A stretch of DNA of 14,450 nt, taken from assembly GCA_034531095.2 (NCBI GenBank), contig JAVRBV020000007.1:1-14450 (forward strand), read 5' to 3'. Below the pieces are notes generated by a model. The model had not been told where the DNA came from. It did no database searches and saw only the letters and a program-made list of their open reading frames with translations. Both the position numbers and the translations under genes were made by a program. Source of the stretch: Nostoc sp. CreGUA01. GTDB lineage: Bacteria > Cyanobacteriota > Cyanobacteriia > Cyanobacteriales > Nostocaceae. Positions 34-13,229 of the stretch are shown here, in pieces. Positions within the stretch are counted from its first letter, which is position 1; each line of letters opens with the position of its first letter.

Positions 34-100
34 GTGGGAGGTGTGTCCGGTGTGGGAGGATGGGGAAGCATTAATTCTCTTTCCCCACACTCCCCACACT

Positions 101-199
101 CCCTCATCCCCCTCATCTCCCTCATCTCCCTCATCTCCCTCATCCCCCTCATCTCCCTCATCCCCCTCATCCCCCTCATCCCCCTCATCCCCCTCATCT
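101..199 (+). repeat. 9-nt tandem array CCCTCATC[C/T], 11 units
   Basis: Perfect 9-nt periodicity from 101 to 199; only the last base of each unit varies (C/T). It is flanked by CCCCACT-type short repeats (84-100, 200-215). It generates the spurious low-complexity ORFs in three frames (PSSPSS, LIPLIS, MRGMREMR). Confidence 0.95.
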
Positions 200-219
200 C
201 CCCACTCCCCACTCCCCAT

Positions 220-867
220 ATGCCACTTATTCTCGAAGCCAGTAGCCTATCTCTCAACGATGTTCATCGCTTTCTCAAAGTAGAAGAACTTTCAACTGGT
301 TCATTCACTGACTTTTTAAATTTAGAACCGTTGACAGAGTTTGAACAACAGGATTTATTGCGAATTAGAAACGACTATCATCGTTATCTCAAGTATGGTA
401 AAATTTCTGAAGGTTTAGTTAAATTTTTGACTATTGCGCCATTAATGCGGTTAGCAGGATTTTACGATGTGCCGATTCGGTTGACAATGGAAGATAGCGT
501 TGCGATCGCTGTGGAAGATGAAGACAAAAAAATCACCGGACGGATGGATATTTTAGCAATCAACAATCCTCAAAGTAATATTGCACCGCCATTTTGGATT
601 TTAGTAATTGAAACAAAAAATAGTGCGATCGAAGTTGGTGAGGGTTTACCTCAATTACTTACTCATACTTTTAAAAGTTTACAAGAACAACCATCTGTTT
701 GGGGCTTGGCAACTAACGGACTGCGTTATCAATTTGTTTATTTAAAACGCGAACAACAGCCGACTTATCAATTAATGCCATTATTAAGTCTTAATGAATC
801 TGCCGGGGCGATTGAGTTATTACAAGTTCTTAAAAACATCTGCCAGTTAGTAAATTTTCAGAAATAA
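220..867 (+). CDS. PD-(D/E)xK nuclease-fold protein, type I restriction enzyme HsdR N-terminal-domain-like (215 aa)
   Basis: This is ORF 34-867 trimmed to ATG 220, because codons 34-219 only read through the 9-nt repeat. The core GRMDILAI...(x17)...FWILVIETKNS fits the D...E-x-K nuclease signature. This family is abundant in cyanobacteria. Confidence 0.7.
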   Translation: MPLILEASSLSLNDVHRFLKVEELSTGSFTDFLNLEPLTEFEQQDLLRIRNDYHRYLKYGKISEGLVKFLTIAPLMRLAGFYDVPIRLTMEDSVAIAVEDEDKKITGRMDILAINNPQSNIAPPFWILVIETKNSAIEVGEGLPQLLTHTFKSLQEQPSVWGLATNGLRYQFVYLKREQQPTYQLMPLLSLNESAGAIELLQVLKNICQLVNFQK

Positions 868-875
868 TTGAAGAA

Positions 876-908
876 GAATTCAGAATCCAGAATTCAGAAT
901 TCAGAATT
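876..908. repeat. Heptamer tandem repeat GAATTCA/GAATCCA, about 4.7 copies
   Basis: gaattca 876-882, gaatcca 883-889, gaattca 890-896, gaattca 897-903, gaatt 904-908. The array is intergenic. Confidence 0.9.
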
Positions 909-978
909 AATTAGTTTGGAGTCGTAACCACCACTTTTTTAACAAAGTGATTTTTGTATCATTGCGGGGCGATCGCTG

Positions 979-1707
979 ATGTCTGAACCTGCTACCTTAG
1001 AAGTCATCTCTGATGATACTTTAGGAGATCGAGTTATTTTTCCTCCTGGCGATATACTGAGTGACGAACCACCCTTGGAAAGTGACCTCCACCGAGACCA
1101 AATCGATTTGCTGATTCGCCTACTGAAATCGTGGTGGCGAGAAAAGCCAGATTTTTATGCTTCTGGCAACTTGACAATTTACTACAGTCCCAATCAGAAA
1201 AAATCAGAATACTTCCGCGGCCCAGACTTTTTTGTAGTTTTGGGAACCGAGAAAAAAGACCGTACAAGTTGGGTAGTTTGGCATGAAGACGGCAAATATC
1301 CAAATGTAATTGTCGAGATTTTGTCCAATTCAACCGCAGCAGTTGACAAAGGCTTCAAAAAACAACTTTACGAAGATACTTACCGTACACCCGATTATTT
1401 CTGGTTTCATCCTGTAACACTAGAGTTTCAGGGATTTCATTTAGTAGATGGAAAGTATCAAGAAATTCAACCCACCACTGATGGACGTTTATGGAGTCAA
1501 CAGTTAGAACTTTACTTGGGAGTTTATGAAGGTAAATTAAGATTCTTTACTACCGAAAATCAATTGATACCATCATCTGAAGAACTGGCCCAACAAGAAA
1601 GTTTACGTGCCCAACAAGCAGAAGAACGTGCCCAACAGGCAGAACAAGAAATTGCCAGACTGCGCGAACTTTTGCGTACACAGGGCATTAACCCTGAGAA
1701 TATTTGA
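979..1707 (+). CDS. Uma2-family (DUF820) putative restriction-endonuclease-like protein with a C-terminal coiled coil
   Basis: 242-aa ORF with an ATG start. It has the Uma2-like pattern PDFFVVLG ... PNVIVEILSNSTAAVDKGFKKQLYEDTYRTPDYFWFHP (a D / E / K triad followed by a Y..YW..P block). The Q/A/E-rich tail AQQAEERAQQAEQEIARLRELL is typical of cyanobacterial members. Confidence 0.8.
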   Translation: MSEPATLEVISDDTLGDRVIFPPGDILSDEPPLESDLHRDQIDLLIRLLKSWWREKPDFYASGNLTIYYSPNQKKSEYFRGPDFFVVLGTEKKDRTSWVVWHEDGKYPNVIVEILSNSTAAVDKGFKKQLYEDTYRTPDYFWFHPVTLEFQGFHLVDGKYQEIQPTTDGRLWSQQLELYLGVYEGKLRFFTTENQLIPSSEELAQQESLRAQQAEERAQQAEQEIARLRELLRTQGINPENI

Positions 1708-1903
1708 CGAGATGAGCAAATTCCATAGACACTTTACAGTTAAAATTGAAAAAGAATACAGAATTGAGAATCAATTTATTCATCCCCCAGTCACACAGAA
1801 TTAAATTCTGTTAGCGGATAGCTAAGGTTTAGCCCATTCTGGCGACTGAGTGCTGAATTGTTTCTTGTTAAAAAATTGTTAATTACTGAAAGTAGGGACT
1901 CGT

Positions 1904-2596
1904 TTGCAAGCAAAAGAGATTAAGGATCGATTAAAATCCCTCATCGAGCAAGCTGACTCGATAGATCCTAATTTAGCGAGAAGATTGAATGAAATCAACC
2001 GTTGGGTAAAGAATATCAAACCGGGTTCCCTGACGGCTAAACCTTTTGTCCTTGCTTTTCTTTTAGAAGTAATTACCGATTCGACAATTTGGCTGATCAT
2101 AAAATCCTCACCTTCCCAAGAAGCACAAAAAGCAAAATTCGAGCAAATGACGCCCATTGAAAGATATTGGTATGGTTACCTTTTTCCCAAATGGATTAAT
2201 GCAAATGATTCCAAGTTTTATATTTGGAAACAAAAATTGATGGCAGGTGAGTTCGATCGCGGTGATGATGATATTATTAGAAATATAGCCCAAGATGTTG
2301 TTCAGCGAGAAGGTAGTTTTTGGCAGCGTTATATTGCCGATCTATCAATGGCAACAGATTTAATTGTCAGTAATCGTCACAATCAACCACTTTGCATTCA
2401 AGTTACCAGTGTCAGTGAAGAACTCAATCAACAAAAGTACCAAGCTTGGCAAAATACACTGCGATCTTGGGAGATAGAGAGAGGATTGTTCCTCAGTTAC
2501 AATCCCAAGGATGCTAATTTTGTTAACCAGTTAGTTAACGTGGCGCTGTATAACAGTGATTATCTTTCTGGTGGGAAATATTTAAAATTTTCCTGA
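1904..2596 (+). CDS. Hypothetical protein (230 aa), no recognised family
   Basis: Long ORF with non-repetitive composition. The only start candidate after the in-frame stop at 1880 is TTG 1904 (apart from a rare CTG at 1886), and a purine-rich stretch (agtaggga) lies upstream. A weak D-x13-Q-x-T pattern (DLIVSNRHNQPLCIQVTS) recalls a degenerate nuclease core but is not convincing. Confidence 0.55.
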   Translation: MQAKEIKDRLKSLIEQADSIDPNLARRLNEINRWVKNIKPGSLTAKPFVLAFLLEVITDSTIWLIIKSSPSQEAQKAKFEQMTPIERYWYGYLFPKWINANDSKFYIWKQKLMAGEFDRGDDDIIRNIAQDVVQREGSFWQRYIADLSMATDLIVSNRHNQPLCIQVTSVSEELNQQKYQAWQNTLRSWEIERGLFLSYNPKDANFVNQLVNVALYNSDYLSGGKYLKFS

Positions 2597-2665
2597 TCGT
2601 TTGCGGATTTTGATGTACAAGATTTGTATTCTAGCCTACATACTTACCTGCTCATTACAGCTTTT

Positions 2666-3106
2666 ATGGCTCACAAAAGAGAAACTCACACCTGCAACAA
2701 TATAAATAATTTTGCCGAAGCTTTAGCAACAGCTAGACAAATGCAGCAGAACTGGTTAACTTATGGGGTGGATTTTATCAACTTTTATGTTGAAGATGTA
2801 GATGGAGACTGGTTAGAAACCTGGGGACATGACGAAATCTTAGGTAATTCTCGATTAGATGCGATTAAAGAATTTTTGGTAAGTGATGATAATGTAGCTG
2901 TAAAAATTAGGCAGTATTTGGGAGAGCGATCGCTCTTTGATTTTGCAGTAAGTTTAGAAGCATATTGGAGAAGTCCTGAGATAGATGACAGGTTAGCTGC
3001 TGTGACAAATCTATTAGCTGGTGGTGAAGATATTCTTCATAAAGATGACATCAGCTTAAGAGATTTAGCAAATAGTCTCTTGGTAAAGTTAGCAGACATT
3101 TTGTAA
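2666..3106 (+). CDS. Hypothetical acidic protein (146 aa from ATG 2666; 160 aa if TTG 2624 is used)
   Basis: ORF 2624-3106 lies on the same strand, 27-69 nt after the previous gene. It is D/E-rich with no recognised motif. A terminator-like hairpin follows it. Confidence 0.55.
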   Translation: MAHKRETHTCNNINNFAEALATARQMQQNWLTYGVDFINFYVEDVDGDWLETWGHDEILGNSRLDAIKEFLVSDDNVAVKIRQYLGERSLFDFAVSLEAYWRSPEIDDRLAAVTNLLAGGEDILHKDDISLRDLANSLLVKLADIL

Positions 3107-3180: not shown

Positions 3181-3223
3181 AGATTTTTTGTCAAAAAACC
3201 TTAATCTAACCGGATTGATATCT

Positions 3224-3295
3224 CCCTCATCCCCCTCATCTCCCTCATCTCCCTCATCTCCCTCATCCCCCTCATCTCCCTCATCTCCCTCATCC
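3224..3295 (+). repeat. 9-nt tandem array CCCTCATC[C/T], 8 units
   Basis: Units fall at 3224, 3233, 3242, 3251, 3260, 3269, 3278 and 3287. The unit and orientation are the same as in the array at 101-199. It explains the spurious minus ORF 3201-3398. Confidence 0.95.
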
Positions 3296-3367
3296 CCAAT
3301 TTTATGGAATCCAAACAGCTGCTATTGTATCCATCAAGGAATATGTTGCTAAATAAGGTAGGATATT

Positions 3368-3784
3368 TTGGAACCAATAACAGCTGGTGCGATCGCAACC
3401 CTCGCTTTTACCAAAGCATTTGAAAAAACCATCGAGAAATTCACTGAAGCAGCCCTGGTAAAAATGGACGAGCTGCGAAAAAAGATTTGGGATAAATTAC
3501 GGGGAAATCTAAAAGCAGAAACAGCCCTTGTTGCTGCTGAAAATGGCTCAAAACCAGATGTAGAAAGGGTTGCTGCTTACTTGCAGGTAATTTTACATGA
3601 AGAACCGGAGTTTGCCAAAGAAGTAGAAACACTGGCTCGTGAAATTCAGGCTGGTAAGATAGTAGACAACAGCAACATGACCCAAATCAACCAAGACAAC
3701 GCCAAAGGATGGCAAACTAAAGTTGAGGGTGGAACAGTTTATCAAGGCGAGATTAACATTCATCATGCACCCCCCAATTCTTGA
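3368..3784 (+). CDS. Small helical effector-like protein (138 aa), Bell-domain-like, with a C-terminal Q/N/G-rich prion-like motif
   Basis: TTG start at 3368 with AGGA 4 nt upstream. The N-terminal hydrophobic helix is MEPITAGAIATLAFTKAFEKTIEKF. The body is charged and helix-prone up to about aa 100. The tail (aa 104-130) is MTQINQDNAKGWQTKVEGGTVYQGEIN, and this motif is repeated at the start of the next gene. The family assignment comes from architecture, not from alignment. Confidence 0.7.
   Translation: MEPITAGAIATLAFTKAFEKTIEKFTEAALVKMDELRKKIWDKLRGNLKAETALVAAENGSKPDVERVAAYLQVILHEEPEFAKEVETLAREIQAGKIVDNSNMTQINQDNAKGWQTKVEGGTVYQGEINIHHAPPNS
3677..3757 (+). other. Copy 1 of the shared 27-aa Q/N/G-rich motif (C-terminus of the effector-like protein)
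   Basis: MTQINQDNAKGWQTKVEGGTVYQGEIN. Nt 3727-3756 are identical to 3846-3875. Confidence 0.85.
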
Positions 3785-3795
3785 ATTCAGCCATC

Positions 3796-3876
3796 ATGAA
3801 CCAAAGCAACCAGGACAACTCTCAGGGCTGGCAAAATCAGGTTGGGGGTGGAACAGTTTATCAAGGCGAGATTAAT
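3796..3876 (+). other. Copy 2 of the shared 27-aa Q/N/G-rich motif (N-terminus of the NB-ARC/TPR protein)
   Basis: MNQSNQDNSQGWQNQVGGGTVYQGEIN, which is 20/27 identical to effector aa 104-130. Confidence 0.85.
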
Positions 3877-5643
3877 TTCTACAATTCCCCTACTGGGCAG
3901 TTACAGTCATCTCCTCCGAATAATATTCCTTACCGGGGTGTCGCCAACTTTGTCGGGCGGGATGAGAAACTTGTAGAACTACATCAAAAATTGCTGCAAA
4001 AAGACAGCGCGGCAATTTTGGCTGTGACTGGTATCGGGGGAATGGGTAAAACCGAACTGGCGACACAATACGCACAGCGCTACAAAGTCAATTATCCTGG
4101 TGGACTTTGCTGGTCAGATGCCAGAAAACCAGATTTAGCAGCAGAGATTGTGGAATTTGCTCAGTTTTACATGAAACTGGAAGTACCCAAAACCTTATTG
4201 ACTTCCCAAGAACAAGCAAAATGGTGCTGGCAGAATTGGCAACCACAAACAGAACTAGTCTTGGTAGTATTGGACAACGTTGACGATGTAACTAACTGGG
4301 AAAATTGTCGCCAAGTACTGCCAACAAATAACCGCTTCTATATATTAGTCACAACTCGGTTGCGAAATCTCGGTTCAACGGTTCAACAGATAACTTTGGA
4401 TGAACTCTCACCAGACGATGCTTTGAAATTGTTGACAGCTTTGTTGGGTGAGAATGATAGGCGGGTGCAACGGGAACCACAAATCGCAGCAAATTTGTGT
4501 CAACGGTTGGGATATCTGCCTTTAGGTTTGCAATTAGTCGGCGCGTATTTGGCAGAAGATCCAAATTTATCTTTGGCAGAGATTTTACAGCGATTACCAG
4601 CCCAGCAACAATCTCAATTGGCAGCCGTATTTGAGTTAAGCTGGCAACAACTCGATTCAATGACACAGCGTGTCGGTGAATTGTTGAGTTTATTTGCCCC
4701 AGATATCATTCCTTGGCAAATAGTTGAATCTGTCAGTCAGCAGTTAAATTGGGCAAAGGTAGATGTTGACGAAGCGAGAAAGCAACTTTATAAGCGCCAT
4801 TTAATTAAAAGCGTAGCAGAAGGAGAAAGTTGCTATAAGATTCATCCTTTAATTAGGGAGTTTTTGCAGGGTAAATTGGTAGGGTCAAAAACAGCCGATG
4901 ACCTCAAAAAAGCCTTTGCCGCAGCATTAGTAGAAATTGCTCGGAAAATACCTGAATCTCCTACCCTTGAGGATATCAAGTTAGTGCAACTGGCAATTCC
5001 CCATTTGACAGAGGTGGCACAAAATCTAATTGATGCTGTGGAGGATGAAAATTTATATTGGGTTTTCAATGGCTTGGGCAAATTCTATCAAGGACAAGGT
5101 TTGTATACCCTAGCAGCACCTTGGTATGAGCAAGGATTATCAACGGTGCAAACCCGTTTGGGAGAAGAAAATCTCAATTTCGCCACCAGCCTGAGTTGGC
5201 TGGCAAATCTCTACAATTCTCAAGGACGCTACGACCAAGCCGAACCCCTGCATCTCCAAGCTTTAGAATTGAGAAAACGCCTGCTGGGAGAAGCACATCC
5301 CCATGTTGCCACCAGCCTGAACAACCTGGCATATCTCTACGATTCTCAAGGACGCTACGACCAAGCCGAACCCCTGTTTCTCCAAGCTTTAGAACTTTAT
5401 AAACGCCTGCTGGGAGAAGCACATCCCCATGTTGCCACCAGCCTGAACAACCTGGCAAATCTCTACTATTCTCAAGGACGCTACGACCAAGCCGAACCCC
5501 TGTATCTCCAAGCTTTAAAAATTCGTCAGCAGGTGTTTGGGGTAAATCATCCCAATACGGTTACTATTCGGCAAAATCTAGAAAATCTCCAGGCTAAAAA
5601 GAATGCTAGCTGTAAAGTTAAGAATAATGCTAACAATTCCTGA
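3796..5643 (+). CDS. NLR-like STAND NTPase: N-terminal prion-like motif + NB-ARC ATPase + TPR repeats (615 aa)
   Basis: ATG 3796. The alternative start TTG 3781 overlaps the upstream stop as TTGA. Walker A is GIGGMGKT (4030-4053) and Walker B is LVLVVLDNVDD (4255-4287). ILVTTR (sensor/RNBS-B-like) and GYLPLGLQLVG (the GLPL motif of NB-ARC) are also present. The C-terminus carries four 42-aa TPR_10/12-type units (ATSLNNLAxLYxSQGRYDQAEPLxLQAL...). Confidence 0.9.
   Translation: MNQSNQDNSQGWQNQVGGGTVYQGEINFYNSPTGQLQSSPPNNIPYRGVANFVGRDEKLVELHQKLLQKDSAAILAVTGIGGMGKTELATQYAQRYKVNYPGGLCWSDARKPDLAAEIVEFAQFYMKLEVPKTLLTSQEQAKWCWQNWQPQTELVLVVLDNVDDVTNWENCRQVLPTNNRFYILVTTRLRNLGSTVQQITLDELSPDDALKLLTALLGENDRRVQREPQIAANLCQRLGYLPLGLQLVGAYLAEDPNLSLAEILQRLPAQQQSQLAAVFELSWQQLDSMTQRVGELLSLFAPDIIPWQIVESVSQQLNWAKVDVDEARKQLYKRHLIKSVAEGESCYKIHPLIREFLQGKLVGSKTADDLKKAFAAALVEIARKIPESPTLEDIKLVQLAIPHLTEVAQNLIDAVEDENLYWVFNGLGKFYQGQGLYTLAAPWYEQGLSTVQTRLGEENLNFATSLSWLANLYNSQGRYDQAEPLHLQALELRKRLLGEAHPHVATSLNNLAYLYDSQGRYDQAEPLFLQALELYKRLLGEAHPHVATSLNNLANLYYSQGRYDQAEPLYLQALKIRQQVFGVNHPNTVTIRQNLENLQAKKNASCKVKNNANNS
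5182..5559 (+). repeat. Three tandem 126-nt (42-codon) TPR-encoding repeats inside the NLR gene
   Basis: The units are 5182-5307, 5308-5433 and 5434-5559. Units 1 and 2 differ at 14/126 nt, confined to 7 codons. Units 2 and 3 differ at 3 nt over the first 84 nt and then diverge. Confidence 0.95.
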
Positions 5644-5807
5644 TGGGAAAAGTTTTTAGGTTTATTTGAGTGAAGCGATATAGCAAGGGACTGGGGACTG
5701 GGTGAAAAGTCTTTTTGTGTTTAGCCTCTTCCATCAGTCTTGCAAAAAACAACGAGTTTTCGACGTTTCAGCCAACGAAAAATTAAGGTTTCACCACAGA
5801 GTGATGA

Positions 5808-5942
5808 CAATACGGTTCGGATAAGCCCAAAGAATAAAAATGTGTAGGTTGGGTTGAGGAACGAAACCCAACATTTCGCGGGGTTTGTTGGGTTTCACTA
5901 CGTTCAACCCAACCTACAAATATTCTTAACCGAACCGTATTG
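5808..5942. mobile_element. 135-bp MITE-like palindromic element with 13-bp perfect TIRs and a 10-bp target-site duplication
   Basis: The TIRs are CAATACGGTTCGG (5808-5820) and CCGAACCGTATTG (5930-5942). The direct repeat AGAGTGATGA abuts both ends (5798-5807 and 5943-5952). An internal long imperfect palindrome includes TGTAGGTTGGGTTGA (5843-5857) and TCAACCCAACCTACA (5904-5918), a motif I recognise as a dispersed cyanobacterial repeat. Confidence 0.8.
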
Positions 5943-6289
5943 AGAGTGATGAAAGAGCGTTAGGGACTTCCAGTTAACAATTCAAAATTCAAAATGACGC
6001 TCGCGGACTCGCTAACGCTATGCAGCCCTTGTTTTGTTCGCGTAGCGTCTCGTTCGCTCTTAGCGTCTCGTAGAGAAGAGAGGACTAAAGTCCTCACTAC
6101 GAACTTAAAATAATATGCCAGTTGCGTAAGTCCTAAATTAGTTTTGGCTTTAATAATCTTTTAGATGTGCAATCTTTATCACTGTTAGCAATAACAGTTG
6201 CTCCTGAATCTGATAAATAATGCGGTATTTACCCAAACGAACCTTAGAGGATGTTTTAAAAGTCCTGAGTGATGTATCAAATACTTTTA

Positions 6290-6413
6290 GATCCCCCTAA
6301 ATCCCCCTTAAAAAGGGGGACTTTGATTCGAGTTCCTCCCTTTTTAAGGGGAGCCAGTGACGGGTACGCAGGGGGTTTCCCCCATGAGCAACTGGCGTGG
6401 ATTTAGGGGGATC
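6290..6413. mobile_element. 124-bp MITE-like element with 15-bp perfect terminal inverted repeats and no obvious TSD
   Basis: The TIRs are GATCCCCCTAAATCC (6290-6304) and GGATTTAGGGGGATC (6399-6413). Internal G5/C5 mini-hairpins are CCCCCTTAAAAAGGGGG (6303-6319) and GGGGGTTTCCCCC (6371-6383). This element type looks like a dispersed Nostoc-type repeat (from memory). Confidence 0.6.
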
Positions 6414-6469
6414 GAGATATGTGCAACTTCACATTAAATTGGTATTACTAGCTAAAAAATATTCGTTAG

Positions 6470-6637
6470 TTACTCCAGAACATGTTTTTCTTGCTCCAGA
6501 ACATGTTTTTCTTGCTCCGGAACATGTTTTTCTTGCTCCGGAACATGTTTTTCTTGCTCCGGAACATGTTTTTCTTACTCCGGAACATGTTTTTCTTACT
6601 CTGGAACATGTTTTTCTTACTCCGGAACATGTTTTTT
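6470..6637. repeat. Tandem array of 8 x 21 bp, unit TT[A/G]CTC[C/T][A/G]GAACATGTTTTTC, each with the 8-bp palindrome AACATGTT
   Basis: Units start at 6470, 6491, 6512, 6533, 6554, 6575, 6596 and 6617. Only 3 positions per unit vary (plus a terminal C-to-T in unit 8). The array is intergenic and all six frames stay open across it, which produces ORF 6397-6639 (PEHVFLA repeats). Confidence 0.95.
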
Positions 6638-7089
6638 GACTAAAATGTGTTTATTAATAAGTTAAAAACTATTTTTATTAAATCGAATTCTATTTGACTT
6701 ATCATTTAATGACTTTCTATAATTAAAAAAAATATTTTTTCGATAATAGCTTTAGTTTTATTTATATAAAAACGAAAATTTCCAGCAAAAATCTCCAAAG
6801 TATAAATAAAACTTAGATGGAATTGAGAACCAATTATGGTTAATTTATCAAAGGATGAGTTTTTATAAGCGATCGCCTTAAAACTTCTCAAAAACGAATA
6901 TTAAAACTTTTGGTGTATTGACTTACACGCCAAATACCCCAGTAGTAGGGTCATCGCACTAACTCAACCCTCTTCAGAATCCACCACAACCACGTTAAGC
7001 TGGATCAAAGTGGCAATTTACTGCGCTCTTGAATAAAAAAATCTCTGTTAAAGTCGAATTTTAACTTTTTTCTGCTTGAGAAACTTGGA

Positions 7090-7812
7090 ATGCTAGACCG
7101 AATTTTTGATTACCTCCACTTTCATTTCAGCGTTGAAGCCCCGATAGTCCTGCTGATACTAATATTTTTAGAGGCAGTGCTATCTGCTGACAATGCCATC
7201 GCCCTTGCTGCCATCGCCCAAGGACTAGAAGACAAAGAACTTGAGCGTAAAGCTTTAAATTTTGGTTTAGTCGTTGCCTACGTGTTGCGAATCAGCCTGA
7301 TTTTGACTGCCACTTGGGTGCAAAAATATTGGCAATTTGAATTATTGGGCGCTGCCTACTTGCTATGGTTGGTATTCCAACACTTTACCTCAGAAGAAGG
7401 CAAGGACGATCATCATCACGGGCCGCGTTTTAATTCGTTATTGCAAGCCATCCCCGTAATTGCATTTACAGATTTAGCATTTTCGTTGGATAGTGTGACA
7501 ACTGCGATCGCAGTTTCTCAAGAAAGGTGGCTAGTATTAACGGGTGCAACAATCGGTATTATCACGCTACGTTTCATGGCGGGATTGTTTATCCGTTGGT
7601 TGGATGAATATGAAAACCTAGAAGACGCAGGCTATATAACTGTAGCTTTTGTAGGACTGCGACTGTTTTTAAAGGTAGTTAACGATAATTTAGTCCCACC
7701 AGAATGGGTAATGATTACAGCCATCTTCCTAATTCTAGGCTGGGGATTTTCCAAACGCGTTGACACCGAACTACCCCAAGTAGAACCGGAAAAGACTGAA
7801 GTACCGAAGTAG
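7090..7812 (+). CDS. TerC-family integral membrane protein (240 aa)
   Basis: ATG 7090. The protein has multiple hydrophobic helices, the conserved TerC-type motif EAVLSADNAIALAAIA, a second half-repeat FTDLAFSLDSVTTAIAV, and a His-rich loop (DDHHHG). Confidence 0.85.
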   Translation: MLDRIFDYLHFHFSVEAPIVLLILIFLEAVLSADNAIALAAIAQGLEDKELERKALNFGLVVAYVLRISLILTATWVQKYWQFELLGAAYLLWLVFQHFTSEEGKDDHHHGPRFNSLLQAIPVIAFTDLAFSLDSVTTAIAVSQERWLVLTGATIGIITLRFMAGLFIRWLDEYENLEDAGYITVAFVGLRLFLKVVNDNLVPPEWVMITAIFLILGWGFSKRVDTELPQVEPEKTEVPK

Positions 7813-7814
7813 GA

Positions 7815-7910
7815 AGAGGGGATGAGGGGGATGAGGGAGATGAGGGGGATGAGGAAGATAAATAAATATTTCTCCCTCTACTCCCTCATCTCCCCCTACT
7901 CCCTCATCTC
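7815..7910. terminator. Inverted 9-nt-repeat arrays forming a long hairpin between convergent genes (probable bidirectional terminator)
   Basis: A GATGAGGGR-type array (7815-7856) is followed by the AT-rich loop gataaataaatattt and then a CTCCCTCATCTCC-type complementary array (7872-7910). The structure sits exactly between the TerC stop (7812) and the ndk stop (7913). Confidence 0.5.
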
Positions 7911-7912
7911 TC

Positions 7913-8362
7913 TTACTCGTGCAACCAAGCTGTTAAATGCGGTTGCCAGCTGACTAATTCTTCATCTTTAAACCACAGGGCAATTTCGCGTTGGGCGGTT
8001 TCTTGGGCATCGGAACCGTGGATTAGGTTGCGACCAATATTAATACCAAAATCGCCGCGAATTGTTCCCGGTTCGGCTGATAAGGGGTTTGTTGCACCAA
8101 TAATTTTTCTGGCAGATGCAACTACGCCATCTCCTTCCCATACCATTGCTACCACCGGCGCGGAAGTAATAAATTCGACTAAGCTACCAAAAAAGGGACG
8201 TTCTTTGTGAACATCATAATGTTGTTCGGCTAATTCCCGACTGACTTTCAGGAATTTTAAACCAACTAAGGTAAAACCTTTGGTTTCAAAGCGACGGATA
8301 ATTTCACCCACTAATTTGCGCTGTACACCGTCAGGTTTAATTGCTAAGAATGTGCGCTCCAT
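7913..8362 (-). CDS. ndk: Nucleoside diphosphate kinase (149 aa)
   Basis: The translation [36 protein letters not shown] ... NLIHGSD (active-site His context) is an unmistakable NDK sequence at the canonical length. Confidence 0.97.
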
Positions 8363-10611: not shown

Positions 10612-10792
10612 GAATTGGGCATGGGGCATGGGGAGATGAGGGAGATGAGGGAGATGAGGGGGATGAGGGAGATGAGGGAGATGAGGGGCGGGGTGCAGGG
10701 GGCAGGGGAGAAAATCTTCCCCTCTGCTCCCTGCTCCCTGCTCCCCTGCCTTTTTCCCAATGCCCAATGCCCAATGCCCAATGCCCAATTCC
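10612..10792. repeat. Composite modular repeat: GGGCATGGGG + 6 x GGGRGATGA nonamers + GGCAGGGG/CCCTGCT palindrome + 4-5 x CCCAATG heptamers. It probably also serves as a bidirectional terminator.
   Basis: The nonamers run from 10631 to 10684. GGCAGGGGAG (10701-10710) pairs with CTCCCCTGCC (10741-10750). AATTGGGCATGGGG (10614-10627) is nearly complementary to the CCCAATG array (10756-10790). The element fills the whole gap between convergent stops at 10611 and 10793. Confidence 0.9.
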
Positions 10793-13044: not shown

Positions 13045-13220
13045 AATGGGGCATGGGGAGATGAGGGGGATGAGGGGGATGAGGGGGATGAGGGGGATGA
13101 GGGGGATGAGGGGGATGAGGGGGATGGGGAGGCAGGGGGAGAAATAACCAATGCCCAATGCCCAATGCCCAATGCCCAATGCCCAATGCCCAATGCCCAA
13201 TACCCAATGCCATGCCCCAT
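13045..13220. repeat. Second copy of the composite modular repeat: GGGCATGGGG + 7 x GATGAGGGG nonamers + GGCAGGGGGAG + about 9 x CCAATGC heptamers
   Basis: The nonamers run 13060-13122 and the heptamers 13148-13210. The flanking inverted repeat is ATGGGGCATGG (13046-13056) with CCATGCCCCAT (13210-13220). Module order and orientation are the same as at 10612-10792. Confidence 0.9.
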
Positions 13221-13229
13221 ACCCAATAA

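What the first reader, a model, noticed from the sequence alone, without database searches (positions are those of the whole stretch)
3368..5643. Two-gene NLR-like module: small helical Bell-like protein plus an NB-ARC/TPR STAND NTPase linked by a shared prion-like motif
Nt 3368-3784 encode a 138-aa protein with three parts:
- an N-terminal hydrophobic/amphipathic helix (MEPITAGAIATLAFTKAFEKTIEKF);
- a helix-prone body of about 100 aa;
- a Q/N/G-rich tail.

Eleven nt downstream (ATG 3796; the alternative TTG 3781 overlaps the stop as TTGA) a 615-aa protein begins. Its first 27 residues repeat that tail. A linker follows, then an NB-ARC ATPase (Walker A GIGGMGKT, Walker B LVLVVLDNVDD, ILVTTR, GLPL-type GYLPLGL), then 42-aa TPR repeats.

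This is the layout of fungal HET-S/NWD2. It also matches the bacterial Bell/BASS gene pairs predicted by Dyrka, Saupe and colleagues (recalled from memory). In that model a ligand-activated NLR oligomerises, and its N-terminal motif folds into an amyloid. The amyloid then templates the same motif on the partner, unleashing a membrane-targeting helical domain (abortive cell death).

To my knowledge no trigger, in vivo activity or phage-defence phenotype has been shown for such a pair in a cyanobacterium. Routine annotation would reduce it to 'hypothetical protein' plus 'tetratricopeptide repeat protein'.
Basis: partly seen in the sequence, partly recalled or inferred. Interest (0 to 1): 0.9.

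Follow-up and report, generated by a model that had tools for sequence, protein, structure and literature searches.

The report
Nostoc Bell/BASS9 amyloid-signalling NLR pair
Two adjacent Nostoc genes encode a small helical "Bell" protein and an NB-ARC/TPR receptor that share a short amyloid-type motif; this is a clear new example of a gene-pair class published in 2020, and its function in cyanobacteria has not been tested.

Summary
Nt 3368-3784 encode a 138-aa helical protein. Eleven nt downstream, nt 3796-5643 encode a 615-aa NB-ARC/TPR STAND NTPase. The effector tail and the receptor head share 21 of 32 residues.

The shared motif is BASS9 of Dyrka et al. 2020. The small protein is 70% identical to a Calothrix PCC 6303 protein listed there as a Bell/BASS9 partner. 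It starts MEPIT, which fits the "MEPIS" N-terminal motif of Bell/Hell/Bab domains.

The window comes from the Nostoc sp. CreGUA01 MAG. The two genes are annotated there as "hypothetical protein" and "tetratricopeptide repeat protein".

Nineteen close Nostoc relatives carry the same pair, most with the same flanking genes. Both genes are under purifying selection. The number of 42-aa TPR units varies from about 2 to 15 between strains.

Tail and head carry locus-specific shared changes, including one synonymous change. This suggests occasional gene conversion between the two copies.

The Bell body also occurs fused directly to NB-ARC/TPR proteins elsewhere.

No structural match to solved folds was found. 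Amyloid formation, cell killing and the trigger remain untested for BASS9 and for any cyanobacterial Bell/NLR pair.

Verdict: a new member of a known kind, of modest interest.

The parts
3354..3362 (+). Shine-Dalgarno-like AAGGTAGGA upstream of the Bell start
   Evidence: The sequence 'ataaggtaggata' is conserved upstream of the TTG start in nearly all close Nostoc orthologues.
3368..3784 (+). Bell-domain effector gene (138 aa, TTG start), carrying a C-terminal BASS9 motif
   Evidence: ORF. 225 homologues, mostly about 138 aa and from Nostocales. 70% identical to Calothrix PCC 6303 P0006, whose tail string and coordinates are those of AFZ02241.1 in Dyrka Table S2. dN/dS 0.12-0.19. TTG start conserved in the 18 close Nostoc orthologues whose start is on the contig.
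3368..3661 (+). Helical Bell body (residues 1-98), including the N-terminal MEPIT hydrophobic helix (residues 1-17)
   Evidence: AlphaFold2 on residues 1-101: mean pLDDT 86, pTM 0.75, helices 6-13, 27-44, 48-58, 62-78 and 80-95. Residues 3-15 are the most hydrophobic 13-residue stretch. The 'MEPIS' motif is described in bioRxiv 10.1101/2024.11.07.622273.
3677..3772 (+). Effector-side BASS9 motif (residues 104-135, MTQINQDNAKGWQTKVEGGTVYQGEINIHHAP)
   Evidence: 21/32 identical to the NLR head. 20/23 identical to a published BASS9 string. pLDDT below 50, i.e. predicted disordered in the monomer.
3785..3795 (+). 11-nt spacer between the Bell stop and the NLR ATG
   Evidence: Length invariant in 19 close Nostoc orthologues. 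No terminator-like site on the + strand between the genes. A polycistronic transcript is inferred.
3796..5643 (+). NB-ARC/TPR STAND NTPase (NLR-like receptor, 615 aa)
   Evidence: Pfam NB-ARC 5e-19, TPR_12 2e-51, TPR_10 5e-48. Orthologues 74-88% identical. Annotated MFN6513075.1 'tetratricopeptide repeat protein', Nostoc sp. CreGUA01.
3796..3891 (+). Receptor-side BASS9 motif (residues 1-32, MNQSNQDNSQGWQNQVGGGTVYQGEINFYNSP)
   Evidence: Conserved at the N-terminus of all 19 Nostoc orthologues.
3964..4584 (+). NB-ARC nucleotide-binding domain (residues 57-263): Walker A 79-86, Walker B about 154-164, ILVTTR 183, GYLPL 239
5050..5580 (+). TPR sensor array: one degenerate unit plus three highly similar 42-aa units (126-nt period)
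   Evidence: Tandem repeat 5159-5517, period 126, 90% matches. The three canonical units are 62-74% identical at protein level. Copy number is about 2-15 in orthologues, with variable positions 4, 7, 11, 14, 17 and 36 of the unit.

Best explanation
This is a two-gene amyloid-signalling cell-death module of the Bell/BASS/NLR class, with a motif of family BASS9.

**Proposed mechanism**
1. The NB-ARC/TPR protein is the sensor. Its hypervariable TPR array binds an unknown cue, most plausibly a cyanophage-derived or other non-self cue.
2. Binding allows nucleotide exchange and oligomerisation of the NB-ARC domains.
3. Oligomerisation brings the N-terminal BASS9 segments together, so that they nucleate a cross-beta fold.
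4. That fold templates the identical-type BASS9 tail of the co-expressed 138-aa Bell protein.
5. Conversion of the tail destabilises the helical bundle that shields the N-terminal MEPIT helix.
6. The freed helix attacks the membrane and kills the cell. This would be abortive infection, or altruistic death within a filament.

**What is shown here**
- The anatomy of the two genes.
- Homology to published Bell/BASS9 pairs.
- Conserved adjacency, with conserved flanking genes in most close relatives.
- Purifying selection on both genes.
- Retention of tail/head similarity across divergent loci.
- Fusion of the Bell body to NB-ARC/TPR proteins in other genomes.

**What is inferred by analogy**
- Amyloid formation by BASS9.
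- Templating from receptor to effector.
- Membrane attack.
- The trigger.

The analogy is to HET-S/NWD2, to BASS1/BASS3 prion assays and to E. coli Bab/Agp.
For: - **Domains.** NB-ARC and TPR profiles hit the large protein.
- **Shared motif.** 21/32 identical residues. The tail is 20/23 identical to published BASS9 strings.
- **Homology.** The Bell protein is 70% identical to the Calothrix PCC 6303 Bell/BASS9 protein of Dyrka Table S2.
- **N-terminus.** It starts MEPIT, against the 'MEPIS' motif whose mutation abolishes Bab and Avast2 activity.
- **Structure.** AlphaFold2 gives a confident helical body, a short N-terminal helix and a disordered tail.
- **Conserved arrangement.** 19 Nostoc orthologous loci all have Bell, 11 nt, then ATG-NLR with a BASS9 head. 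Most carry the same flanking genes.
- **Divergent lineages.** The motif recurs next to Bell homologues with lineage-specific variants shared by tail and head, in L030, L034 and L069.
- **Co-variation.** Mean cognate score 91 against 63 for non-cognate pairs in 8 non-redundant pairs, permutation p = 3e-4.
- **Shared changes at nucleotide level.** These include a synonymous ACT in both copies in L024.
- **Selection.** dN/dS is 0.12-0.5 across the pair.
- **Fusions.** All-in-one proteins Bell-BASS9-NB-ARC-TPR (P0168, P0188) and Bell-CHAT-TIR (P0146) exist.
- **Sensor variability.** The TPR units are highly similar internally, with a few hypervariable positions and variable copy number. This is the pattern described for diversifying NLR sensors.
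- **Precedents.** BASS1 and BASS3 form prions and fibrils, and NLR-side motifs convert Bell-side motifs. Bab/Agp is an amyloid-dependent Abi system.
Against: - No experiment exists for BASS9 or for any cyanobacterial Bell/NLR pair. Only BASS1, BASS3 and BASS11 have been tested.
- Foldseek and HMM searches of the PDB gave no significant match to HeLo, MLKL, CC or any other fold. The best E-values were 1.9 and 3.0. The link to pore-forming domains therefore rests on the N-terminal motif and on context.
- No Pfam or PADLOC model recognises the Bell protein.
- The locus is a stable chromosomal site next to housekeeping genes (TerC, ndk, speA). It is not an obvious mobile defence island. Only weak nuclease-type hints lie upstream.
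- Some close orthologues carry mismatched tail/head alleles: L002, L013 and L018 (VYQ against AYV) and L004.
- A large sister group of Bell homologues has an NB-ARC gene directly downstream but no matching head motif. Motif sharing is therefore not obligatory for the association.
Confidence: 0.75

Rival explanations
1. The module is the same, but its role is not antiphage. It might control allorecognition or developmental cell death within or between Nostoc filaments, or partner recognition in symbiosis. Many of the orthologue-bearing MAGs look, from their isolate names, like symbiont-derived Nostoc (my inference).
For: - Dyrka et al. link Bell/NLR pairs to multicellular lifestyle rather than to phage.
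- The locus has conserved flanks and lies between housekeeping genes rather than in a mobile island.
- TPR arrays differ between strains, as at fungal het loci.
Against: - The only functional demonstration for a Bell-type amyloid pair is antiphage Abi.
- Bacterial STAND NTPases tested so far (Avs, bNACHT) are antiphage (established knowledge).
- No data here discriminate between triggers.
Confidence: 0.15
2. The shared segment is an ordinary heterotypic docking motif that tethers the small protein to the NTPase as a stoichiometric regulator or adaptor. No amyloid or prion-like templating is involved.
For: - AlphaFold2 gives no structure for the tail.
- BASS9 has not been tested for fibril formation.
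- Sister loci keep the Bell-NLR adjacency without a shared motif.
Against: - The composition (Q/N/G-rich, G-containing pattern of about 25 residues) and the position (C-terminus of the effector, N-terminus of the NLR) match motifs that were all amyloid-forming when tested.
- Identity between the two copies (66%) exceeds the 43-56% that sufficed for cross-seeding.
- A docking motif would not normally need to be the same sequence on both partners.
Confidence: 0.07
3. The pair is a decaying or split 'all-in-one' Bell-NLR gene, and the repeated segment is a neutral tandem duplication at the break point.
For: - Single-polypeptide Bell-BASS9-NB-ARC-TPR proteins exist (P0168).
- The two motif copies form an 84-nt direct repeat only 119 nt apart.
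Against: - The stop codon, the 11-nt spacer, the ATG and both motif copies are conserved in 19 Nostoc genomes. Similar arrangements occur in Calothrix, Nodularia and others.
- Both genes and both motif copies are under purifying selection.
- Walker A, Walker B and the other NB-ARC motifs are intact.
Confidence: 0.03

Closest known systems
Bell/BASS9/NB-ARC-TPR gene pairs (Dyrka et al. 2020, bioRxiv 10.1101/2020.01.06.895854; e.g. Calothrix sp. PCC 6303 AFZ02241.1/AFZ02242.1)
   Same: - Small protein of about 138 aa with a helical body of about 100 aa.
- Acidic residue at position 2 and a hydrophobic N-terminal helix.
- C-terminal MTQxNxDNAKGWQTKVEGGT.Y motif repeated at the N-terminus of a collinear NB-ARC/TPR gene a few nt downstream.
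- Found in Nostocaceae.
- TPR repeats with high internal conservation.
   Different: - This Nostoc clade has the variant core GGTVYQGEIN instead of GGTAYIGE.
- The two copies are more alike (66%) than in the Calothrix pair listed (12 matching positions of 23).
- This specific locus and its set of Nostoc orthologues were not in the 2020 table.
HET-S/NWD2 of Podospora anserina (fungal amyloid signalling)
   Same: - Adjacent effector and NLR genes.
- Amyloid-type motif at the effector C-terminus and the NLR N-terminus.
- Helical membrane-targeting effector with a hydrophobic N-terminal helix.
- Hypervariable repeat sensor.
   Different: - HET-S has a HeLo domain (no Pfam HeLo hit here) and a two-repeat HRAM motif.
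- NWD2 is NACHT/WD rather than NB-ARC/TPR.
- There is no sequence relationship between the motifs.
Bab/Agp of E. coli ECOR25 (BASS11; bioRxiv 10.1101/2024.11.07.622273)
   Same: [quoted passage not shown]
- Demonstrated amyloid-dependent abortive infection.
   Different: [quoted passage not shown]
- The 'Babybell' domain is shorter (about 80 aa).
- The motif family is BASS11.
- It lies in a prophage defence hotspot, whereas this locus is a stable chromosomal site.
Antiviral STAND NTPases (Avs/Avast, bNACHT)
   Same: - STAND NTPase with a repeat sensor.
- Some carry the MEPIS-type N-terminal helix as a fused effector.
   Different: - In those systems effector and sensor are in one polypeptide and no amyloid relay is needed.
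- No PADLOC model of these families matched the window proteins.

Membership tests
Bell/BASS/NLR amyloid-signalling gene pair (Dyrka et al. 2020) | Small protein carrying a Bell domain, i.e. homologous to proteins recovered as Bell by HMMER from ONI86675.1 | tested here: met
   70% identity over 100% of its length to P0006 of Calothrix sp. PCC 6303. The P0006 tail MTQINQDNAKGWQTKVDGGTAYI at residues 104-126 is exactly the entry for AFZ02241.1 in Table S2. The original Bell HMM itself was not available.
Bell/BASS/NLR amyloid-signalling gene pair (Dyrka et al. 2020) | Predicted all-helical domain of about 100 aa, with a hydrophobic N-terminal helix and an acidic residue at position 2-3 | tested here: met
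   AlphaFold2 gives five helices in residues 6-95 with pLDDT 86. The sequence starts M-E-P-I-T. Residues 3-15 are the hydrophobic maximum.
Bell/BASS/NLR amyloid-signalling gene pair (Dyrka et al. 2020) | Adjacent (within 5 kb), usually collinear gene encoding NB-ARC or NACHT plus TPR/WD repeats | tested here: met
   11-nt gap, same strand. NB-ARC 5e-19 and TPR_10/12.
Bell/BASS/NLR amyloid-signalling gene pair (Dyrka et al. 2020) | Motif of about 25 aa shared between the Bell C-terminus and the NLR N-terminus | tested here: met
   21/32 identical, E 3e-16. Conserved in orthologues.
BASS9 motif family | Match to the BASS9 (nlr_20) motif | tested here: met
   The tail is 18-20/23 identical and the head 13-14/23 identical to three Bell-side BASS9 strings of Table S2. 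The published pHMM itself was not run.
Bell/BASS/NLR amyloid-signalling gene pair (Dyrka et al. 2020) | The motif forms amyloid or prion, and the NLR-side copy converts the Bell-side copy | not testable with these tools
   Shown only for BASS1, BASS3 and BASS11. No data for BASS9.
HeLo/Hell/MLKL-4HB/CC superfamily of membrane-targeting helical domains | Detectable sequence or structural similarity to a solved member | tested here: not met
   No Pfam HeLo, HeLo-like or SesA hit. PDB HMM search best E 0.31, to an unrelated protein. Foldseek best E 1.9 and 3.0; the NRG1.1 CC-R domain appears only at E 5.4. [quoted passage not shown]
HeLo/Hell/MLKL-4HB/CC superfamily of membrane-targeting helical domains | Membrane permeabilisation or cell killing on activation | not testable with these tools
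   No experimental data for this protein.
Known antiphage STAND systems (Avs1-5, bNACHT, CARF/others in PADLOC) | Match to a PADLOC model of such a system | tested here: not met
   Only generic TPR and weak candidate-system hits for the NLR. None for the Bell protein.

The most novel reading that the evidence does not exclude
The Nostoc Bell/BASS9/NLR locus is a fixed-position, polymorphic immune or recognition locus. Two processes would act on it.
1. Receptor specificity diversifies by TPR-unit shuffling, giving about 2-15 units with six hypervariable positions.
2. Templating compatibility between receptor and effector is kept by short-tract gene conversion between the two 84-nt motif copies, which lie 119 nt apart.

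Gene conversion as the mechanism of amyloid-motif co-evolution has, to my knowledge, not been described. It would explain how effector and receptor motifs stay matched.
Probability: 0.3. Interest if true: 0.55.

Novelty: new member of a known kind. Interest (0 to 1): 0.33.

Why it matters
Amyloid relay from an NLR-like sensor to a pore-forming-type effector is a striking parallel between bacterial, fungal and animal cell-death immunity. For the NLR-linked bacterial pairs, no trigger or phenotype has been reported.

This locus has features that make it a good test case:
- Both genes are intact.
- The two motif copies are unusually well matched.
- A set of 19 natural Nostoc alleles exists, differing mainly in the TPR sensor.

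That set could be used for cyanophage-specificity or allorecognition experiments. As a discovery, however, it adds an example rather than a concept.

Tried and rejected
- **Pfam, NCBIfam and PADLOC on the small protein.** No family passed its cut-off. The DUF3131 hit (17.9 bits against a 20.3-bit cut-off) and other scattered weak hits across 116 homologues are inconsistent, and I treat them as noise.
- **PDB search with a 116-sequence profile.** Nothing significant.
- **Foldseek of the full-length model and of the trimmed, higher-confidence model against the PDB.** No match better than E = 1.9. Neither the Bab crystal structure nor HeLo/MLKL was recovered. Fold-level membership could therefore not be shown.
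- **Rfam and tRNA scans of the window.** Nothing found.
- **My first Walker A regular expression** (G.{4}GK[ST]) wrongly suggested that many orthologous partners lack a P-loop. Inspection showed AMGGIGKT variants, so that lead was dropped.
- **Defence-island context.** Upstream ORFs give only Uma2 and weak PD-(D/E)xK or PDC-S03 hits. This is not enough to call an island.
- **Split pseudogene of a fused Bell-NLR.** Rejected because of the conserved stop, spacer and ATG and the purifying selection.
- **Literature searches for a cyanobacterial Bell/NLR phenotype.** None found.
Full report
**1. Observation**

The ORF list and the raw sequence confirm a 138-aa ORF at 3368-3784 on the + strand. It starts at TTG, downstream of an AAGGTAGGA Shine-Dalgarno-like element. 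A 615-aa ORF runs from ATG 3796 to 5643. The alternative TTG at 3781 does overlap the TGA stop. In 19 close orthologues, however, the frame is closed two codons before the ATG, and the 11-nt spacer is invariant in length. ATG 3796 is therefore the start.

The tail of the small protein and the head of the large one share 21/32 identical and 27/32 similar residues. At DNA level they form an 84-nt direct repeat, 85% identical, spaced 119 nt.

Pfam finds NB-ARC (5e-19, residues 57-263) and four TPR_10/TPR_12 units in the large protein. The TPR period is 126 nt.

**2. Source**

Both proteins are in public databases. They are MFN6513074.1 ("hypothetical protein") and MFN6513075.1 ("tetratricopeptide repeat protein") of the MAG Nostoc sp. 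CreGUA01.

The rest of the window is ordinary Nostoc chromosome:
- Upstream lie a Uma2-family gene and three unknown ORFs.
- Downstream lie TerC, ndk, arginine decarboxylase (named from the translation only), a sugar-phosphate nucleotidyltransferase (likewise), ScpA and a polyketide-cyclase-fold protein.
- These genes are separated by short tandem 7- and 9-mer repeats.

**3. What it is**

Dyrka et al. 2020 (bioRxiv 10.1101/2020.01.06.895854) defined two things. One is the Bell domain, a helical domain of about 100 aa in proteins of 120-140 aa. The other is a set of ten bacterial amyloid signalling sequence families (BASS1-10). These motifs are shared between Bell C-termini and the N-termini of adjacent NB-ARC or NACHT proteins, mostly in filamentous Actinobacteria and Cyanobacteria including Nostocaceae.

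Their Table S2 lists BASS9 (member motif nlr_20) pairs with Bell-side strings such as MTQINQDNAKGWQTKVDGGTAYI, from Calothrix sp. PCC 6303 AFZ02241.1, residues 104-126. The window's tail, MTQINQDNAKGWQTKVEGGTVYQ, is 20/23 identical to that string. The whole window protein is 70% identical to P0006, a 138-aa Calothrix PCC 6303 protein that carries exactly that string at 104-126. The pair is therefore a BASS9 Bell/NLR pair.

The N-terminus MEPITAGAIATLAF fits the "MEPIS" motif. Ibarlosa et al. 2024 (bioRxiv 10.1101/2024.11.07.622273) describe it as the conserved putative pore-lining helix of Bell, Hell, Bab and some antiphage NLRs.

**4. Independent tests**

(a) *Structure.* AlphaFold2 with a 116-sequence alignment models residues 1-98 as helices 6-13, 27-44, 48-58, 62-78 and 80-95. 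Mean pLDDT is 86 and pTM 0.75 for the trimmed domain. The tail (residues 100-138) stays below pLDDT 50. Residues 3-15 are the hydrophobic maximum of the protein.

Foldseek against the PDB gave nothing better than E = 1.9, and a profile search of PDB sequences found nothing significant. Relatedness to HeLo, MLKL or CC folds is therefore not demonstrated here. [quoted passage not shown]

(b) *Context.* Among 79 loci from GTDB species genomes that encode a relative of the small protein, 19 close Nostoc loci have the identical arrangement: Bell, 11 nt, then ATG-NB-ARC/TPR with a BASS9 head. Most of them carry the same flanking genes on both sides.

More distant loci from Calothrix, Nodularia, Aetokthonos, Crocosphaera and others also carry a copy of their own tail variant near the start of a neighbouring NB-ARC-type gene. 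In some of them the motif follows a helical extension of about 50 aa, as in Table S2.

(c) *Co-variation.* In 8 non-redundant pairs the mean cognate tail/head score is 91, against 63 for non-cognate pairs (permutation p = 3e-4). Clear lineage-specific variants are shared by both partners. An example is L034, with STGYQIGTATGTNYFG in the tail and STGYQVGKATGNNHFG in the head. Shared ancestry inflates this test, so I treat it as supportive rather than conclusive.

(d) *Selection.* dN/dS is 0.19 for the Bell body, 0.12 for the tail, 0.23 for the NLR head and 0.32-0.50 for the NB-ARC and following region. Both are real, constrained genes.

(e) *Fusions.* A profile search of 1.84 billion representatives finds 537 relatives. 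Most are about 140 aa, but some have the Bell body as the N-terminal domain of a larger protein:
- NB-ARC/TPR proteins. P0168 has a single BASS9-like segment between Bell and NB-ARC; P0188 is similar.
- A CHAT/TRADD-N/TIR protein (P0146).
- GUN4-domain proteins.

The NB-ARC fusions independently tie the Bell body to this receptor class.

**5. Additional features**

*TPR sensor.* The array is built of 42-aa units that are very similar to one another. Among complete orthologues the number of recognisable units ranges from about 2 to 15, giving protein lengths of 583-1088 aa. Variation is concentrated at unit positions 4, 7, 11, 14, 17 and 36. This is the pattern Dyrka et al. and earlier fungal work associate with rapidly diversifying NLR sensors. 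Copy numbers in short-read MAGs may be collapsed, and several contigs end inside the array.

*Start codon.* The Bell start is TTG in the 18 close Nostoc orthologues whose start lies on the contig, GTG in Nodularia and ATG in Calothrix. A conserved weak start would fit low expression of a potentially toxic effector. That reading is my inference.

*Possible gene conversion.* The two motif copies share more identical codons than codon usage predicts: 15 of 19 against 8.2 expected, p about 0.001. [quoted passage not shown]
- The window's head uniquely reads GEIN, like its tail.
- L024 has a synonymous ACT in both copies.
- L005 has K in both copies.
- L011 and L014 have AYV in both copies.
- L010 has DIS in both copies.

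The permutation test on nucleotide identity is only p = 0.026, and mismatched loci exist (L002, L004, L013, L018). Occasional short-tract gene conversion is suggested, not shown.

*Synonymous divergence.* dS of the pair between strains (0.18-0.27) is about half that of the flanking ORFs (0.46-0.62). This could reflect recombinational exchange of the module. I did not follow it up.

**6. Mechanism**

By analogy with three systems, the most likely mechanism is an amyloid relay. The three systems are HET-S/NWD2, the BASS1 and BASS3 assays, and Bab/Agp. In the BASS1 and BASS3 assays, NLR-side motifs convert Bell-side motifs to the prion state at 43-56% identity. Bab/Agp is an amyloid-dependent abortive-infection system with membrane relocalisation.

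The steps would be:
1. Ligand-induced oligomerisation of the NB-ARC/TPR protein.
2. Nucleation of a cross-beta fold by the clustered N-terminal BASS9 segments.
3. Templating of the Bell tail.
4. Release of the MEPIT helix.
5. Membrane damage and cell death.

The architecture, homology and evolutionary coupling are shown here. Every biochemical step is inferred. [quoted passage not shown] I found no later report.

**7. Rivals**

- The same module could serve allorecognition, development or symbiosis rather than phage defence. This is plausible, given the stable chromosomal position and the multicellularity association.
- The shared motif could be a non-amyloid docking motif.
- The pair could be a split, decaying fusion gene. 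Conservation argues against this.

A sister group of Bell homologues has a different tail (QNVQNVYGGEAEQNN...APVIQGGSGHNITFN). It has an NB-ARC gene directly downstream whose Walker A lies at about residue 51, with no matching head. The Bell-NLR association can therefore exist without a detectable shared motif. The simple relay model does not explain this.

**8. Verdict**

The finding is a clear new member of a known, published class (BASS9 Bell/NB-ARC-TPR), not a new kind of system. Interest is modest. Its value lies in being a well-matched pair, with a ready set of natural Nostoc alleles, for testing an untested function. The hint of gene conversion between the two motif copies adds some value.

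Noticed in passing
window 3673-3756 and 3792-3875; L005, L010, L011, L014, L024: The two motif-coding segments share more identical codons than expected (15/19 against 8.2). They also carry locus-specific changes present in both copies, including a synonymous ACT in L024. This suggests sporadic short-tract gene conversion between the effector tail and the receptor head.
   Followed up: partly
window 5050-5580; L002, L004, L007, L017, L018: TPR unit number at the orthologous locus varies from about 2 to 15 between Nostoc genomes. Variation is concentrated at six positions of the 42-aa unit. Several MAG contigs end inside the array, so counts may be assembly-limited.
   Followed up: partly
window 3368; L001-L018, L024, L034: The Bell gene uses a TTG start in 18 close Nostoc orthologues (the start is missing from the L015 contig). 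Nodularia uses GTG and Calothrix ATG. This may be a conserved weak start for a potentially toxic product.
   Followed up: partly
P0168, P0188, P0146, P0175, P0158, P0222, P0280: The Bell body also occurs fused to other domains. The partners are NB-ARC/TPR (P0168, with a single BASS9-like linker), CHAT/TRADD-N/TIR (P0146), CHAT (P0175) and, unexpectedly, GUN4-like domains (three representatives).
   Followed up: partly
L039, L040, L042, L043, L047, L049, L050, L053, L055, L057, L058, L065, L067, L071, L073, L076, L077, L079: A sister group of Bell homologues has a different conserved tail (QNVQNVYGGEAEQNN..APVIQGGSGHNITFN). In at least five of these loci an ORF opening directly after the Bell stop has a P-loop at about residue 51, and none has a matching head within 4 kb. 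The simple tail/head relay model does not explain this.
   Followed up: no
window 3368-5100 versus 220-3106: Synonymous divergence between Nostoc strains is about half as large in the Bell/NLR pair (dS 0.18-0.27) as in the four upstream ORFs (0.46-0.62). This hints at recombinational exchange of the module or at unusual constraint.
   Followed up: no
window 5644-7089: This 1.45-kb non-coding stretch is not conserved in the orthologous loci. It contains a MITE-like inverted repeat (about 5795-5945, with a copy elsewhere in L001) and a 21-nt tandem repeat of 7.8 copies (6473-6636). There were no Rfam hits.
   Followed up: partly
window 83-205, 3220-3294, 7812-7918, 10631-10687, 13048-13227: Short tandem 7- and 9-mer repeats (CCCTCATCC/GGGGATGAG and CCAATGC types) fill several intergenic regions on both strands. 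They create spurious long ORFs with SPSSPSS- or MRGMRE-type translations.
   Followed up: no
window 220-867 and 979-1707; L040, L042, L049, L053: ORF1 has a weak PD-(D/E)xK nuclease-like hit (PADLOC PDLC01472, 4e-7). In Scytonema and Brasilonema-type loci its homologue lies immediately upstream of the Bell gene. In Nostoc, a Uma2 gene and two unknown ORFs lie between them.
   Followed up: no
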